Source: a phage. Taken from it: a DNA stretch of 64,000 nt. Shown one piece after another: positions 38,913-44,978 of the stretch. The notes under the pieces were generated by a model, which had not been told where the DNA came from, did not search any database, and saw only the letters and a list, made by a program, of their open reading frames with translations. Location of the stretch: sequence record PX880102.1. One strand, given 5' to 3'. How positions within the stretch are numbered: the first letter of the stretch is position 1; every line of letters begins with the position of its first letter. The position numbers were made by a program, and so were the translations under genes.

Positions 38913-39386
38913 TTATTTGAATGATTTGACGTACTGAATAGAGCCTTTACTATTCACGAAAGCGATTTTACCATTTTTGTTATACATTGTAGCAGTACGC
39001 TGATAACCATAAGTTTGTTTACCAGATTGATAACCAACTAATGCAAAATTATCTTCGCCCATTTTATTCTGTTTGGCGCGGATACGTTCATGACCGTGCG
39101 CCATAAGAACCTTAGCATCGCCAGTTGAAATTGATCTACGAGTTTTTTCATCTTCAACTGTATTAACAAAGTCGTCAAATGAATCAAATTTAGCATGAGA
39201 TTTATTATACAGTTTTCCATCTACTGCATAATTATATCCCTGTACATCCATCTCAACTTCTGTACCATCATCCAATACAGCAGTAATTTTTTGACCTTTT
39301 TTAAATTTCAAAAGATCAGTAAAAGATTCAGCAATAATTTGAGAATTAATAGCTGCTTCAGTGATAAATTCTTGATATGTTTTCAT
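38913..39386 (-). CDS. Internal-protein-like head protein with capsid targeting sequence
   Basis: 157 aa; N-terminus MKTYQEFITEA is the T4 internal-protein capsid-targeting leader. Confidence 0.65.
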   Translation of the reverse strand: MKTYQEFITEAAINSQIIAESFTDLLKFKKGQKITAVLDDGTEVEMDVQGYNYAVDGKLYNKSHAKFDSFDDFVNTVEDEKTRRSISTGDAKVLMAHGHERIRAKQNKMGEDNFALVGYQSGKQTYGYQRTATMYNKNGKIAFVNSKGSIQYVKSFK

Positions 39387-39395
39387 ATATTTCCT

Positions 39396-39812
39396 TTAAA
39401 TGTAAATATTTTTGCCGTAGTATTTATACCAGTGTGGCTTCATTAAAATTTTTTCATTGAGTCGTTGTTGACTCAATTTAATAGCTGATTTGCATGGGTT
39501 ATAATCATTTTTCCATTCTGCTGAAATATCGCTGATGTCAGGAACTTCAGTATCTTTTATACTGAACCCACGTTTTAAGCATTCCGTTATAATGTCTGAT
39601 TGACGCTTTCGCAAAAATTCTAACTTATCGTAAAAGAACGTAACATGACCAGAACCTAAAATAAACTCGGAAGATATTTTAAAATCTTTAACCCGTTTAC
39701 CATTTGCCACATGTTTACGAACTATACCAAAAACACGTGGCAATTCACGGTATTCTGCGATTAAATGTTGATCAGCAAGTTCAGATACTAAAGTCAAATT
39801 AATACGAGTCAT
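39396..39812 (-). CDS. denV: Endonuclease V (pyrimidine dimer glycosylase) DenV
   Basis: 138 aa; N-terminal [17 protein letters not shown] matches T4 DenV from memory. Confidence 0.92.
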
Positions 39813-39837
39813 TTTATCCCTCCAAGTAATTGTGAAT

Positions 39838-39867
39838 ATACTATCACAATTCTAGGAGAAAGTAAAC
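39838..39867 (-). promoter_or_regulatory. T4-type early promoter upstream of denV
   Basis: GTTTAC and GTGATAGTAT on minus strand. Confidence 0.55.
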
Positions 39868-39871
39868 AACT

Positions 39872-40402
<531 letters not shown>

Positions 40403-40858
40403 TTAAAAGAGGCTGTTCATTATTCGGTAAAGTGAAGGACCCATCACATATTGCCACTGAGTACGAGGAATAAGGGCAAAAGCATCCATCTCTGGAATCA
40501 TAACACCATCTTTATTTTCAAAATAAGACTCGCAATGGCAATTTCTAAACATCTCATGCTCTACTGGAATCGTATAATAAAATAACTGTAAGTCTTTATT
40601 ACTAGAATATTTAAATACACCTAGGTCTTCTAGAAGGTCTGGATTATAATTGTTAAAACCAGTCTCTTCTGAGCATTCTCTTTTTGCAGCTTCCAGTGCA
40701 TTCAAATCAGAACTTTCTACACGCCCCTTTGGAATATCCCAGCGATGTGCCATCATTCCAGGTTTACGAGAACCAGTAACTCGTCCCATAAATAAATCTT
40801 TATCTTCTGTCATAAAGATAATACCAGCTGATAATGTTTTCATTTTAATTTCCTGCAT
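40403..40858 (-). CDS. nudE: Nudix hydrolase NudE
   Basis: 151 aa; Nudix box GRVESSDLNALEAAKRECSEETGF. Confidence 0.85.
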   Translation of the reverse strand: MQEIKMKTLSAGIIFMTEDKDLFMGRVTGSRKPGMMAHRWDIPKGRVESSDLNALEAAKRECSEETGFNNYNPDLLEDLGVFKYSSNKDLQLFYYTIPVEHEMFRNCHCESYFENKDGVMIPEMDAFALIPRTQWQYVMGPSLYRIMNSLF

Positions 40859-41328
40859 TCAGTGATAAAATTATTTAAATTTTGAGTATATTTCTTTTCA
40901 TCAAAAATCTTTTGTTGTCTGCGCATCCGCCATGGCATTTCAATGAACATGTACCATATTCCTGATAATATTGATGCTGTAAAAATATTAACAAGTATGG
41001 TTAAAAGAATCCAATCTCCTATTCTGTCCATTGGATTTTTTATAAAAAAGTAAAATACGAATGATGACACAGGAAGACTAATGATATACCACAGAATCAT
41101 AATCTTATCTGTGAACCATTCAGCATTCGTTAACTTAGCACGACCATTATGAATACACACGAATTTATCATCTGTTACCATAGATGGCTTAACTGCTTGA
41201 TATCCCATTCTAAACTCCCTAATTAATCGTTTCTTTGTATCTTCAGAACAGCCACTCCAGTCAACTCCATCAACTGAAATGCCATCGTCCCCATCATCTA
41301 AATCATACCAGCGAGTTTTTAAAATCAT
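40840..41328 (-). CDS. Hypothetical membrane protein, paralogue family member 1
   Basis: 162 aa; TM segments; C-terminus FITECRKLK. Confidence 0.5.
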   Translation of the reverse strand: MILKTRWYDLDDGDDGISVDGVDWSGCSEDTKKRLIREFRMGYQAVKPSMVTDDKFVCIHNGRAKLTNAEWFTDKIMILWYIISLPVSSFVFYFFIKNPMDRIGDWILLTILVNIFTASILSGIWYMFIEMPWRMRRQQKIFDEKKYTQNLNNFITECRKLK

Positions 41329-41699
41329 TTAATTTTCCTACAATCACTCACAAACTCTTTCATTGATTCATTTTCAATATAAGACATGTAGTTATTATAT
41401 TCTTTTAATTGTATTTTGTAATCCTTTTTTCTTTGCCAATTTATTTTAAAATTATCATAATGAAAATATAAAATAATACCAAAGAATGAAAATAATGAAA
41501 TTGCTATAGTATAATGAAGTTCACTCCAAACTTCTATTATATCTACTATACCGCTGACGTTACTGCGGATGTTTAAAATAAAACAGTCAATTAGCAATCC
41601 AATAAGACTACCCGCAAGAGCTGCAAATACTGACACAGCAAGAATTAATAGTGCCTCGGGAAACGAATATTTGACTTTATTTAGTTTTGGCTTTTGCAT
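41325..41699 (-). CDS. Hypothetical membrane protein, paralogue family member 2
   Basis: 124 aa; two TM segments; C-terminus FVSDCRKIK. Confidence 0.5.
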   Translation of the reverse strand: MQKPKLNKVKYSFPEALLILAVSVFAALAGSLIGLLIDCFILNIRSNVSGIVDIIEVWSELHYTIAISLFSFFGIILYFHYDNFKINWQRKKDYKIQLKEYNNYMSYIENESMKEFVSDCRKIK

Positions 41700-42073
41700 C
41701 GTGATTCCTTAACAAATTTCATAATTTCATCAAATTCATACGCAGCAAGTTTAAGCTGATGTTCTTTTTTAATCTTTTTGCACCGGGCTTTCCAATCACG
41801 TACACGTTTACGATAGTGTCTTCCTTGATACCAGTATCCTACCCAATTCACAGGTACTAATAAAAGCGGAACTACCAATGGAAGAATTAGTGTTGCTCCA
41901 AATATTACACCAGATTCAATATCAGTCATAACGTCTATAACCATTCCAGCAATTAGCAAAATCACAAATGATACAGCTACCACAGGACCTATTAACACAT
42001 CAGTAGAAATTAGCTGACGCTTTGGTTCATACTTCACTGGTTTACTTGGAAGGTATAGTGATGGCTTTGACAT
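41681..42073 (-). CDS. Hypothetical membrane protein, paralogue family member 3
   Basis: Track start at 42094 is a TTG; ATG at 42073 with AAGGAA Shine-Dalgarno used; C-terminus FVKESRCK. Confidence 0.5.
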   Translation of the reverse strand: MSKPSLYLPSKPVKYEPKRQLISTDVLIGPVVAVSFVILLIAGMVIDVMTDIESGVIFGATLILPLVVPLLLVPVNWVGYWYQGRHYRKRVRDWKARCKKIKKEHQLKLAAYEFDEIMKFVKESRCKSQN

Positions 42074-42656
42074 ATTCTCTACATTCCTTAACAAATTTTT
42101 CTAATAATAAATCGCTTTCAAAATTAGGATTTTCCACGAATTTATCAAAAAGATCATCAACAATAGTTAAGATATTCTTTTTACTAAGAATACGTTTATT
42201 TTCATATTTTGTTTCAGAATCAACTATAAGAGTAAAGAAATATTTCTTTCCCTGAAATTTTACCGTAGTATCAATATAGAACAAATTTGACTTTTGTAAA
42301 TTACGTTTAAACCATGCATCACTTAAACTATAAACGCCAAGATAATCATAATCGTCATTTAAATAACAAACTGTCCATTCAGGAGAAATGAAATCAGTAA
42401 ATTCAACATCAAAATCACACGTCAATGAATGAATTGATTCAATACTGTTAATGAGTATTCCAGGACGTATTAAAGACTTTTTACCTCTAGAAAATCTTCC
42501 GGAAAGGCTTTCATCAGTTTCATATGAAGACCCCCAATAGTAATTACGTCCTTCTGCCATGCGTTTAAGAGCATTTAGTAATTGGTCTGGAACATCAACC
42601 TGTCTTTGGAACTCTTCAAACATTGAATTGAAATCACTTTGCATTTTCATTTTCAT
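42042..42656 (-). CDS. Hypothetical protein
   Basis: 204 aa; C-terminal KFVKECREYVK resembles tails of the three downstream membrane proteins. Confidence 0.5.
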   Translation of the reverse strand: MKMKMQSDFNSMFEEFQRQVDVPDQLLNALKRMAEGRNYYWGSSYETDESLSGRFSRGKKSLIRPGILINSIESIHSLTCDFDVEFTDFISPEWTVCYLNDDYDYLGVYSLSDAWFKRNLQKSNLFYIDTTVKFQGKKYFFTLIVDSETKYENKRILSKKNILTIVDDLFDKFVENPNFESDLLLEKFVKECREYVKAITIPSK

Positions 42657-42675
42657 TCCTATTTACTCCAAGTAT

Positions 42676-42693
42676 AAGGGGCCGAAGCCCCTT
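42676..42693 (-). terminator. C(UUCG)G hairpin
   Basis: GGGGC-UUCG-GCCCC on minus strand. Confidence 0.55.
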
Positions 42694-42697
42694 ATCA

Positions 42698-43291
42698 TTA
42701 TTTCAGAGAATTAATGTATTCCTGAACATCGGCAGAGGTAGTTTCAACCCCAGAAATATTACCGTTAAAGGTTTCAACTCGAGCAAGGGTATCTTCAATA
42801 TCAACCTTAGTCAGTGCTGCAATTTCAACTACATCATCGGCAGTACTAATTCCAAGGGCATTTGCTGCACGAGTTTCACGGATATATTCCAATTTAACCG
42901 CAAGTTCTTGACGAGCATCATCTAACTCAACTACTTTCTTGGCGATTTCAATTCGCATTTCAGCATAACCGTCAGCTTTAGTAGTCAACTGCTCAGCTGT
43001 TCGACGATATAGTAAACCGAGTTTAGCATGCATTGTTACATCTTGACCCTCGGAAAGAAGTTTACGAATTTCACGCTCTTTTGATTCGGCTTGTCGATTC
43101 TTTTCGACAATAAGTTCACGAATACGTTTTTCTTCATTAATAGATTTAACAGAAGCAGTTTTTAGATCTTTAATTTTATCAAGCAGTTTTGCTGCTGCAG
43201 CAGTATACTGTTCTTCAACAGATAGATTTTTAGCCATAGCAGAACCAAGTTTAGTGCGAATAAATTCAACAATTTTCTTCAGTGTGTTCAT
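42698..43291 (-). CDS. Hypothetical coiled-coil protein (possibly PspA/IM30-like)
   Basis: 197 aa, predicted all-helical with heptad pattern; family assignment unverified. Confidence 0.45.
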
Positions 43292-43333
43292 AGTATTTCC
43301 TTAGGTTGATTAAAAATAAAATCTGTGGAAGAA

Positions 43334-43879
43334 TTATATCATACTATTTAAGAGATGTAAACTATTTTTAATTTTACAAATTCGTTCAGCTTCTTCAACG
43401 GCGGCGGCGATGATGCTTTTAGCTATAGGAGTACTAATACTAGTAGCTTTTACACTTAACACGATTTCTTTATCTTTACTAGGCCAACCCCATGATTTTT
43501 CACCATGAGTGCCTTTAATTACAGCAGACACCTCAAGTGAGCATCCACTGTCACATGTTTTTACATTAACAACCCAAGGGTCACTTTTCTCAACCGATTT
43601 CTCAGCCGGTTTATCCCAGTAAATATTAAGAATACGTGGGACATCAAATTTAGCAGGGCAAATCTTAACTGTAAGACCTTCGCTTTCTAGCCAATTAATA
43701 AGAGGGCGTTCATACATGCGGCGATGTGGGCTTTGGACTCGACAAGCCTTGTGCCCATTGCTTGCGGCTTCACTAAGCTGTTCTAATACCTGTTTTTGCA
43801 TTATTGATAAGATATCATCAAAAGATTTTTCGGAAGTTTCATTCAGTTCGGTATAAAGAGACATAACGGTTTTCCTCAA
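43334..43879 (-). CDS. Hypothetical protein
   Basis: ORF track 181 aa. Confidence 0.45.
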   Translation of the reverse strand: MRKTVMSLYTELNETSEKSFDDILSIMQKQVLEQLSEAASNGHKACRVQSPHRRMYERPLINWLESEGLTVKICPAKFDVPRILNIYWDKPAEKSVEKSDPWVVNVKTCDSGCSLEVSAVIKGTHGEKSWGWPSKDKEIVLSVKATSISTPIAKSIIAAAVEEAERICKIKNSLHLLNSMI

Positions 43880-44391: not shown

Positions 44392-44418
44392 AAAAAGCCC
44401 CAACCTTTTGGTCGGGGC
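44392..44418 (-). terminator. Intrinsic terminator downstream of internal-protein-like gene
   Basis: 9-bp stem with one mismatch, 4-nt loop, U-run on minus strand. Confidence 0.6.
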
Positions 44419-44426
44419 TAAGAATG

Positions 44427-44950: not shown

Positions 44951-44978
44951 AAAAAGCCCCAACCTTTCGGTCGGGGCT
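44951..44978 (-). terminator. Intrinsic terminator at end of candidate small-RNA region (near-copy of 44392..44418)
   Basis: Same GCCCCAACC/GGTCGGGGC hairpin followed by U-run on minus strand. Confidence 0.6.

What the first reader, a model, noticed from the sequence alone, without database searches (positions are those of the whole stretch)
40840..42094. Tandem family of three small membrane proteins sharing a C-terminal F-x-x-E/D-C-R-K tail
Three consecutive coupled genes encode membrane proteins ending FITECRKLK, FVSDCRKIK and FVKESRCK, and the upstream 204 aa protein ends with a similar KFVKECREYVK. The RK codons (AGGAAA) double as the Shine-Dalgarno of the next gene in at least one junction, so the conserved tail may reflect a shared junction cassette as well as protein function. 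Candidate roles are superinfection exclusion, lysis timing or membrane-defence interference.
Basis: seen in the sequence. Interest (0 to 1): 0.5.

Follow-up and report, generated by a model that had tools for sequence, protein, structure and literature searches.

The report
Shared tail motif on T4 proteins
Four neighbouring, dispensable genes of a T4-like phage (e.5, e.4, e.3, e.2; three are small inner-membrane proteins) end in the same short peptide motif. That motif is conserved at the protein level on one to five otherwise dissimilar proteins next to gene e.6 in T4-type phages generally, which suggests a common binding partner that is still unknown.

Summary
The region is the T4 block e.5-e.4-e.3-e.2-nudE on the minus strand of a Tequatrovirus. 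e.2, e.3 and e.4 each have two hydrophobic segments (N-in/C-in hairpin) and a basic cytoplasmic C-terminal helix. All four upstream genes end in F-[IV]-x-[ED]-[C/S]-R. Each downstream start uses a Shine-Dalgarno inside those tail codons, in two registers (K-E or R-K).

The tail is not a by-product of that overlap. In 36 loci from diverse T4-type phages the motif (hydrophobic)-[END]-x-[FW]-[IV]-x-x-C-R occurs 110 times, always downstream of e.6 and within 24 residues of a C-terminus. It occurs 3 times elsewhere in 1516 six-frame ORFs. Arg uses all six codons, and Cys and Phe use both of theirs.

With tails removed, the 127 carriers fall into 22 BLAST-unlinked groups, half soluble and half membrane. 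So "one tandem family" is only partly right. e.3 and e.4 are probable paralogues; e.2 and e.5 share only the tail.

Function is unknown, and T4 knock-downs show no fitness effect. Best guess: a shared amphipathic docking helix for one partner (e.6 or a host protein).

The parts
43333..43361 (-). Promoter-like site (TTTACA-17-TATAAT with TG, 11/12) upstream of e.6. Candidate early promoter of the e.6-to-nudE transcription unit.
   Evidence: consensus scan only; function not shown
42698..43291 (-). e.6, 197 aa, Cys-free, soluble (six orthologues aligned). It is the conserved gene that always precedes the tail-bearing genes.
   Evidence: phrog_1203; 1108 phage records
42674..42695 (.). GC-rich palindromic hairpin (9 bp stem, 4-nt loop) in the 41-nt e.6/e.5 spacer.
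42042..42656 (-). e.5, 204 aa, soluble. Tail motif F-V-K-E-C-R at 42078-42095. Its last 10 codons overlap the start of e.4 in another frame.
   Evidence: (phrog_2607)
41681..42073 (-). e.4, 130 aa from the ATG at 42073. Two hydrophobic segments. Cys-less tail F-V-K-E-S-R at 41699-41716.
   Evidence: phrog_2604; precomputed PF26873
41325..41699 (-). e.3, 124 aa. Two hydrophobic segments followed by a ~40-aa C-terminal helix. Tail F-V-S-D-C-R at 41337-41354. The start ATG shares its A with the Arg codon of the e.4 tail.
   Evidence: (phrog_2330)
40840..41328 (-). e.2, 162 aa. A 75-aa N-terminal soluble domain, two hydrophobic segments, and the tail F-I-T-E-C-R at 40852-40869.
   Evidence: phrog_2203; precomputed PF26896
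40403..40843 (-). nudE (Nudix hydrolase). The start at 40843 overlaps the e.2 stop (ATGA) and uses AGGA from the e.2 R-K codons. The 151-aa start annotated in T4 (40858) has no SD.
42083..42098 (-). Copy 1 of an exact 16-nt direct repeat (AAATTTGTTAAGGAAT on the coding strand), covering the e.5 tail and the e.4 SD.
41704..41719 (-). Copy 2 of the same 16-nt repeat, covering the e.4 tail and the e.3 SD.

Best explanation
Shown:
- The block is the T4 accessory genes e.5, e.4, e.3 and e.2. They are translationally coupled behind e.6 and in front of nudE.
- e.2, e.3 and e.4 are predicted N-in/C-in two-segment inner-membrane proteins with a basic cytoplasmic C-terminal helix. e.5 is soluble.
- All carry, at or near the C-terminus, a protein-level conserved motif: hydrophobic(-3), E/N/D(-2), x, F/W(0), I/V(+1), x, x, C(+4), R(+5). 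e.4 has S, I or V at +4.
- The hydrophobic positions -3, 0, +1 and +4 have the i, i+3, i+4, i+7 spacing of one face of an amphipathic helix.
- In T4-type phages the motif sits on 1-5 proteins per genome, all between e.6 and nudE. Their bodies are mostly unrelated, and about half are soluble and half membrane-anchored.

Inferred:
- The tail is a short docking or assembly helix that lets these proteins bind one common partner in the cytoplasm at or near the inner membrane.
- Candidate partners are the invariably adjacent, much better conserved e.6, or a conserved host protein.
- The bodies evolve fast and the plug stays fixed.
- The Shine-Dalgarno sequences inside the tail are secondary use of K-E, E-E or R-K codons in a tightly packed operon.
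- e.3 and e.4 probably arose by tandem duplication of a unit running from one tail to the next.
For: Identity: 97% nucleotide identity to Tequatrovirus genomes that annotate e.2-e.6 here, and PHROG matches.

Topology: hydropathy; AF2 model of e.3 at pLDDT 83 with helices 13-49, 54-59 and 62-123; acidic loop between the segments and basic flanks (sequence).

Protein-level selection:
- The only invariant columns besides Met1 in e.2 orthologues plus RB69ORF133c are F, I, E, C, R of the tail.
- F and C are invariant in e.3. F, C, R, E are invariant in e.5 at 19-48% identity.
- In 86 unique tails, Arg uses AGA 23, AGG 13, CGA 7, CGT 25, CGC 9, CGG 2. Cys uses TGT 48, TGC 38. Phe uses TTT 54, TTC 28.
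- Positions that were not searched for are also constrained: -3 is hydrophobic in 84/86 and -2 is E, N or D in 66/86.

Locus specificity: 110 hits downstream of e.6 and within 24 residues of a C-terminus, against 3 elsewhere in 1516 ORFs and 162,738 residues. In 33 of 33 full loci the gene directly after e.6 carries the tail.

Modularity: with tails removed, 127 carriers form 22 BLAST-unlinked clusters. Only the two e.5 clusters rejoin at profile level.

Independence from coupling: the motif is present where the next start lies 29 nt downstream with its own SD (Mexia 102-aa protein) and where 5-24 residues follow it.

Duplication: exact 16-nt repeat at the e.5 and e.4 tails; junction alignment extending into MSKPSL/MQKPKL; full-length e.3/e.4 alignment; hhalign 94% with tails and 56%, E 1e-4, without.
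Against:
- VR7 keeps e.3 and a truncated e.4 with tails, but has no e.6 or e.5 in the 3.4 kb upstream of e.4 (tails). This argues against e.6 as an obligatory partner.
- e.6 has no cysteine, so no disulphide or shared metal site with the tail Cys is possible.
- The near-invariant Cys-Arg pair is unusual for a purely hydrophobic docking helix and may indicate chemistry rather than docking.
- e.4-type tails lack the Cys.
- T4 knock-downs of e.2-e.6 gave no fitness effect in the laboratory host (supplement of PMC11879866), so there is no phenotype to anchor any mechanism.
- The AF2 model of e.2 was poor (pLDDT 52).
Confidence: 0.5

Rival explanations
1. Paralogy relic. All tail carriers descend from one ancestral gene by repeated tandem duplication and rapid divergence. 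The tail is simply the slowest-evolving remnant and has an intramolecular or homo-oligomeric structural role (for example, capping or zipping the C-terminal helix). It is not a plug for a shared partner.
For: - The genes are tandem, co-oriented and of similar size. e.3 and e.4 are alignable end to end.
- RB69ORF133c weakly matches the membrane half of the e.2 family (phrog_2203, E 8e-4).
- EnC07 has three tandem membrane carriers.
- There is an exact 16-nt repeat at two tails.
Against: - Carriers include soluble proteins of 92-273 aa and 2-TM proteins with no detectable body similarity: 22 unlinked clusters, and no profile links apart from e.5 with e.5.
- e.2 shows nothing against e.3 or e.4 once the tails are trimmed.
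- An intramolecular structural role does not explain the same motif on such different bodies.
Confidence: 0.2
2. Cysteine-arginine chemistry. The conserved C-R is a site of modification, redox or metal chemistry. Examples would be an ADP-ribosylation acceptor for the phage Alt/Mod enzymes (with the ADP-ribose-hydrolysing NudE encoded next door), or a thiol that coordinates a metal between subunits.
For: - After the search-defining F, Cys and Arg are the most invariant residues.
- The cluster always ends at nudE.
- Established knowledge, not tested here: T4 Alt, ModA and ModB ADP-ribosylate arginines, and NudE hydrolyses ADP-ribose (Xu et al. 2002, cited in PMC1524935).
Against: - The e.4 lineage works with S, I or V instead of Cys. 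Some e.3 orthologues have K instead of R.
- No catalytic or metal-binding family was matched.
- The NCBI label 'sulfurtransferase' on some e.3/e.4 records has no NCBIfam support.
- A single Cys per protein cannot form a site on its own.
Confidence: 0.12
3. Nucleotide-level junction cassette. The tail is conserved because its codons form the ribosome-binding site or coupling signal of the next gene. It may spread by recombination between junctions.
For: - All four downstream starts in the window use an SD inside the tail.
- There are two pairs of near-identical junctions.
- K-E, E-E and R-K codons are SD-like.
Against: - The constrained residues are F/W, I/V, C, R and the -3 hydrophobic. None of these is needed for an SD, and they are encoded by all available synonymous codons.
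- The SD register differs between junctions.
- The motif is retained with uncoupled downstream genes and with long C-terminal extensions.
- The motif-to-start distance, read from the table, ranges from about -2 to about +38 nt.
Confidence: 0.05
4. Nascent-peptide signal. The motif acts inside the ribosome exit tunnel to pause elongation or termination near the stop codon. This would promote re-initiation on the overlapping downstream gene.
For: The motif is protein-level, lies near stop codons, and most carriers are followed by overlapping starts.
Against: - The distance from motif to stop varies from 0 to 24 codons.
- The motif is present before uncoupled genes.
- It shows no resemblance to known arrest peptides (own knowledge; not tested).
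Confidence: 0.05

Closest known systems
T4 ORFs e.2, e.3, e.4, e.5 ('conserved hypothetical, predicted membrane protein'; PHROGs 2203, 2330, 2604, 2607; Pfam PF26896 and PF26873)
   Same: These are the same genes. Nucleotide identity to Tequatrovirus genomes is 97%, the order is syntenic (e.6-e.5-e.4-e.3-e.2-nudE-e), and the PHROG matches are full length.
   Different: In the T4 reference, e.2 is truncated to 309 nt and lacks the second membrane segment and the tail. The window has the intact 162-aa form. I found no published statement that these ORFs share a C-terminal motif.
T4 small early membrane proteins of superinfection exclusion and lysis control (Imm, Sp, RI, RIII, holin T)
   Same: Small, non-essential, phage-encoded proteins of the inner membrane, one gene (nudE) away from the lysozyme gene e (own knowledge of the T4 literature for the comparators).
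   Different: No sequence relationship: PHROG scans returned no family annotated as exclusion, holin or antiholin. None of those proteins is known to me to carry this tail. The motif occurs nowhere else in a complete Tequatrovirus genome.
Shared C-terminal docking peptides. Examples: the sliding-clamp (gp45) binding tails of T4 gp43, gp33 and gp55, or the FtsZ C-terminal peptide that binds FtsA, ZipA and MinC.
   Same: A short conserved peptide at the C-terminus of several otherwise unrelated proteins. It has a hydrophobic i, i+3, i+4 pattern and sits after a flexible or helical linker. This is a functional analogy only.
   Different: The sequence motif is different, with an invariant Cys-Arg. 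No partner is known. The carriers are confined to one locus. The resemblance to the FtsZ tail (I-x-x-F-L-R-K) is recalled from memory and does not cover the most conserved C-R.
Translationally coupled overlapping genes of T4 (ATGA overlaps with the SD inside the upstream coding sequence)
   Same: There are overlaps of 4, 4, 19 and 32 nt, with SDs of -4.2 to -6.1 kcal/mol inside the upstream tail.
   Different: Here the same upstream codons are also part of a protein motif conserved across genera. That is not a general property of coupled junctions.

Membership tests
T4 e.3 / e.4 / e.2 / e.5 orthologue groups | Full-length significant sequence match and conserved gene order | tested here: met
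   PHROG E-values 3e-61, 2e-69, 2e-76 and 3e-110; homologues at 64-100% identity; synteny in the annotated phage vB_SsoM_113 and in RB69.
   e.2 versus e.3: only 14-15 tail residues align. e.2 versus e.4: nothing. With tails trimmed, e.2 gives 0.8% and 0.1% probability.
e.3/e.4 paralogue pair | Profile similarity outside the tail, and a shared N-terminus | tested here: inconclusive
   hhalign gives 94%, E 1e-7, with tails and 56%, E 1e-4, over 46-98 columns without them. BLASTP gives 22% identity over the full length, E 0.008. Both share M-x-K-P-x-L...K-Y and the INW/VNW motif. The junction DNA is similar.
Two-segment inner-membrane hairpin, N-in/C-in | Two hydrophobic helices, an acidic loop and basic flanks | tested here: met
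   Kyte-Doolittle segments; AF2 helices of e.3. No dedicated topology predictor was available, and localisation is not shown.
Translational coupling cassette | Stop/start overlap with the SD inside the upstream gene | tested here: met
   (all four junctions)
Translational coupling cassette as the cause of tail conservation | Conservation at nucleotide level rather than amino-acid level; fixed register relative to the start | tested here: not met
   All synonymous codons are used at F, C and R. There are two SD registers, and uncoupled carriers exist.
Shared C-terminal docking motif (short linear motif) | The same motif on non-homologous bodies, near the C-terminus, under protein-level selection | tested here: met
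   22 unlinked body clusters; 0-24 residues after the motif; codon data.
Shared C-terminal docking motif (short linear motif) | A demonstrated common binding partner | not testable with these tools
   No multimer prediction or interaction data were available.
Superinfection exclusion / holin-antiholin proteins | Homology to Imm, Sp, RI, RIII or T, or a demonstrated exclusion or lysis phenotype | tested here: not met
   No such family appears in the PHROG, Pfam or NCBIfam scans. The phenotype is not testable here. CRISPRi guides against e.2-e.6 are listed 'Not Fit'.
Known anti-phage defence or counter-defence components | Match to PADLOC models | tested here: not met
   0 families for e.2-e.6. 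PADLOC covers defence proteins, not anti-defence proteins, so this is weak evidence.
PspA/IM30 (considered for e.6) | Match to PF04012 or to solved PspA/Vipp1 chains | tested here: not met
   Only weak, inconsistent sub-threshold Pfam matches (none to PspA) for six e.6 orthologues; no PDB match for the single sequence or the profile.

The most novel reading that the evidence does not exclude
The F-I-x-x-C-R tail is an address tag. It plugs a fast-evolving repertoire of soluble and membrane-anchored effector proteins into one conserved hub, either e.6 or a conserved host protein at the inner membrane. That would make the e.6-to-nudE block a previously unrecognised modular effector-docking system of T4-type phages, with a plug-and-play evolutionary logic: new bodies, same plug.
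Probability: 0.3. Interest if true: 0.75.

Novelty: new variant of a known kind. Interest (0 to 1): 0.57.

Why it matters
e.2-e.6 are among the many T4 genes with no known function after 60 years of study. A nine-residue motif now links up to five of them per genome, across several Tevenvirinae genera with taxonomy given in the fetched records and probably across Aeromonas T4-type phages too. The motif sits on bodies that otherwise share nothing, and always next to the well-conserved e.6. This turns a set of anonymous ORFs into one testable unit. A single peptide can be used as bait to find the partner. A single class of point mutants (F, C, R) can test all members at once. The pattern of a fixed plug with rapidly diverging bodies is what one expects of host-interaction or counter-defence modules. 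If the tail is only a structural relic, the result still corrects the annotation: e.4 start, nudE start, and spurious 'sulfurtransferase' and 'host specificity protein' names.

Tried and rejected
- Pfam, NCBIfam and PADLOC scans and PDB sequence searches of e.2-e.6: no informative match.
- PspA-like idea for e.6: rejected.
- HMMER profile of e.3+e.4 against 1.84 billion representatives: only 8 hits, all T4-type. The family has no relatives outside these phages.
- AF2 of e.2: pLDDT 52, unusable for fold search.
- Foldseek of the e.3 model against viral structures: only T4-type relatives and generic helical hairpins.
- A degenerate DNA pattern for the tail could not be scanned in the collections because it has too few specified bases.
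- Literature searches for e.2-e.6 function or for the motif: nothing except annotation and guide tables in the CRISPRi-ART supplement. The T4 genome review was not held.
- Capsid-targeting or gp21-cleavage reading ('FITE' also occurs in the MKTYQEFITEAA leader of the internal protein at 38913-39386): set aside as coincidence. Membrane proteins are not prohead cargo, and e.3 has V-S-D.
- FtsZ-tail mimicry: recalled from memory only. It does not cover the invariant C-R, so it was not pursued.
- The out-of-frame ATG created by E-C codons (GAA TGY) as the reason for conservation: rejected. e.3 has GAT TGT, and the ATG created by the e.5 tail codons (GAA TGT AGA) is followed directly by a stop.
Full report
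**What the region is.** The window is from a T4-like phage. Positions 39800-43300 are 96-97% identical to many Tequatrovirus genomes. One of these, vB_SsoM_113, names the genes denV, e, nudE, e.2, e.3, e.5 and e.6 in this order. All genes lie on the minus strand. Reading in the direction of transcription:
- e.6: 42698-43291, 197 aa
- a 41-nt spacer with a GC-rich hairpin: 42674-42695
- e.5: 42042-42656, 204 aa
- e.4: 41681-42073, 130 aa
- e.3: 41325-41699, 124 aa
- e.2: 40840-41328, 162 aa
- nudE: 40403-40843
- the lysozyme gene e

A promoter-like site (11/12 match) lies upstream of e.6. The small ORFs on the plus strand (31-77 aa) overlap these genes and have no support.

**Checking the observation.** The four C-termini read NNFITECRKLK, KEFVSDCRKIK, MKFVKESRCKSQN and EKFVKECREYVKAITIPSK, as reported.
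- Hydropathy gives two hydrophobic segments in each of e.2, e.3 and e.4 and none in e.5.
- The sequences have a short acidic loop and strongly basic stretches after the second segment, which fits an N-in/C-in hairpin.
- The AlphaFold2 model of e.3 (128-sequence alignment, pLDDT 83) has helices 13-49, 54-59 and 62-123. That is a hairpin whose second helix continues about 40 residues into the cytoplasm and ends in the tail.
- [ED]CR[KE] occurs three times in all six frames of the window, all in this block.
- In the complete genome of a relative (KNP1), [FW][IV]..C[RK] occurs three times in 930 ORFs, all in the e.2, e.3 and e.5 tails. Chance would give 0.03 such C-termini per genome.

Two corrections apply. 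e.4 starts at the ATG at 42073, not at the TTG at 42094. The Cys of 'SRCK' in e.4 is out of register and comes from the overlap with the e.3 start codon.

**Coupling.** The stop/start overlaps are 32, 19, 4 and 4 nt. Duplex energies with the anti-SD place the SD of e.4 and e.3 in the V-K-E codons (UAAGGA, -6.1 kcal/mol, spacing 10 and 5). The SD of e.2 and nudE lies in the R-K codons (AGGA, about -4.2, spacing 6). The junctions form two nearly identical pairs, including an exact 16-nt repeat at the e.5 and e.4 tails.

**Is the tail a by-product of the SD? No.** I fetched the locus from several other phages:
- RB69
- a Klebsiella phage (Mexia)
- two Gaprivervirus phages
- a Yersinia phage
- Erwinia phage Cronus
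- Enterobacter phage EnC07

The tail is present on the orthologues and on additional proteins.
- In e.2 orthologues at 23-35% identity, the only invariant columns besides Met1 are F, I, E, C, R of the tail.
- In e.3, F and C are invariant.
- In e.5 at 19-48% identity, F, C, R, E are invariant.

I then anchored on e.6 in IMG/VR and obtained 36 loci with e.6 identity from 100% down to 51%.
- The strict motif occurs 110 times on the e.6 strand. Every hit is downstream of e.6 and within 24 residues of a C-terminus.
- It occurs 3 times elsewhere among 1516 six-frame ORFs.
- In 86 unique tails, Arg uses all six codons, and Cys and Phe use both of theirs.
- Positions that were not part of the search are also constrained: -3 is L, F, I, V or M in 84/86, and -2 is E, N or D in 66/86.
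- The motif also occurs where the next gene starts 29 nt downstream with its own SD, and where up to 24 residues follow it.
- The hydrophobic positions -3, 0, +1 and +4 have amphipathic-helix spacing.

**Is it one family? Only partly.**
- BLASTP between e.2 and e.3 aligns just the tail, and e.2 versus e.4 gives nothing. e.3 versus e.4 aligns over the full length at 22% identity, E 0.008.
- Profile comparison gives 94% for e.3 versus e.4. After trimming the tails this drops to 56%, E 1e-4. e.2 matches nothing once trimmed.
- e.3 and e.4 also share the N-terminus M-x-K-P-x-L...K-Y and similar upstream junction DNA. I rate them as probable paralogues.
- With tails removed, the 127 unique carriers form 22 BLAST-unlinked clusters. 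At profile level only the two e.5 clusters rejoin.
- About half the carriers are soluble.
- In 33 of 33 full loci the gene directly after e.6 is a soluble tail carrier. It is followed by 0-3 membrane carriers, whose tail sits a median of 25 residues after the last hydrophobic segment.

**What is known.**
- The e.3+e.4 profile finds only 8 representatives among 1.84 billion proteins, all T4-type.
- No Pfam, NCBIfam, PADLOC or PDB match gives a function. The label 'sulfurtransferase' on some database entries is unsupported.
- The CRISPRi-ART study lists T4 e.2-e.6 as unknown, with guides scored 'Not Fit'. It also shows that the T4 reference e.2 is a 309-nt truncation.
- Natural variants confirm dispensability and plasticity. 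They include an e.4/e.2 chimera lacking e.3, an e.4 without its membrane hairpin, frameshifted copies, and an e.5-e.4 fusion caused by a one-base change in an A-run.

**Interpretation.** The data show a protein-level C-terminal motif on diverse bodies, confined to one locus next to a conserved gene. The most economical mechanism is a shared amphipathic docking helix for one partner. The partner could be e.6, which is present in 1108 phage records against 534-795 for e.2-e.5. It could equally be a conserved host protein.

Three points count against e.6. VR7 keeps tailed e.3 and e.4 but has no e.6 or e.5 in the 3.4 kb upstream of e.4. e.6 has no cysteine. No interaction could be computed. The invariant Cys-Arg keeps a chemistry-based rival alive. 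The biological role (exclusion, lysis timing, counter-defence) remains open.

Noticed in passing
L002:4231-5026, L004:4191-5212, L005:3984-5243, L019:5303-5829 and 26 of 35 e.6-anchored loci (L020-L054); absent from the window: A second C-terminal-motif family lies in the same hypervariable block. It consists of 1-5 tandem small soluble proteins (65-105 aa) that all end G-x-W-[VIF]-S-S-S-x-x-C with Cys as the last residue, between e.3 and e.2. None is present in the window or in the complete Tequatrovirus genome KNP1.
   Followed up: partly
window 42698-43291 (-): e.6 is far better conserved (51-100% identity from Escherichia phages to an Erwinia phage, with Aeromonas phages also among the 1108 matching records) than its neighbours. 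It is Cys-free and soluble. Its invariant N-terminus L-K-K-x-V-x-F-I-R-x-K-x-G has the same F-I-plus-basic core as the tails. Some records call it 'host specificity protein' without visible basis.
   Followed up: partly
window 40840-40860 (-): The nudE start is ambiguous. The 151-aa start used in the T4 annotation (ATG formed by the E-C codons of the e.2 tail, 40858) has no SD (+1.3 kcal/mol). The ATG at 40843 has AGGA at spacing 6 and an ATGA overlap with the e.2 stop.
   Followed up: partly
P0144, P0195, P0040, P0196; L001:4870-5844: Natural rearrangements of the block. P0144 is the e.4 N-terminus fused to the e.2 membrane half, with e.3 deleted. P0195 is e.4 with the membrane hairpin deleted in frame. 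There are also frameshifted e.3 and e.4 copies. Phage vB_SsoM_113 has e.5 and e.4 as one 324-aa ORF, from a one-base loss in the A-run just before F-V-K-E, possibly a sequencing error.
   Followed up: partly
window 44396-44419 and 44955-44978 (-): Two almost identical strong terminator-like hairpins (AGCCCCGACC-[GA]AAA-GGTTGGGGCT followed by a T-run) lie 559 nt apart, upstream of the e.8-like gene.
   Followed up: no
window 38913-39386 (-): A 157-aa ORF directly after denV starts MKTYQEFITEAA, which resembles the capsid-targeting leader of T4 internal proteins. Its 'FITE' matches the e.2 tail, which I judged coincidental.
   Followed up: no
L002:6690-7376, L004:6554-7240, L017:2144-2830, L018:5893-6579: A conserved 228-aa protein ending ...RVNAQVYLEFPMEGW sits among the tail-bearing genes in the non-Tequatrovirus genera. 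A ~305-320-aa protein starting MMLVIGSRALH (MLLVIGSRALH in EnC07) accompanies them as well (L002:5357-6313, L004:5535-6494, L019:6254-7171). Neither is present in the window's block.
   Followed up: no
database entries P0013, P0020, P0051, P0063 and others: Several NCBI records name e.3 and e.4 homologues 'sulfurtransferase', and one each 'DNA primase' and 'terminase small subunit'. No NCBIfam or Pfam model supports any of these names.
   Followed up: partly
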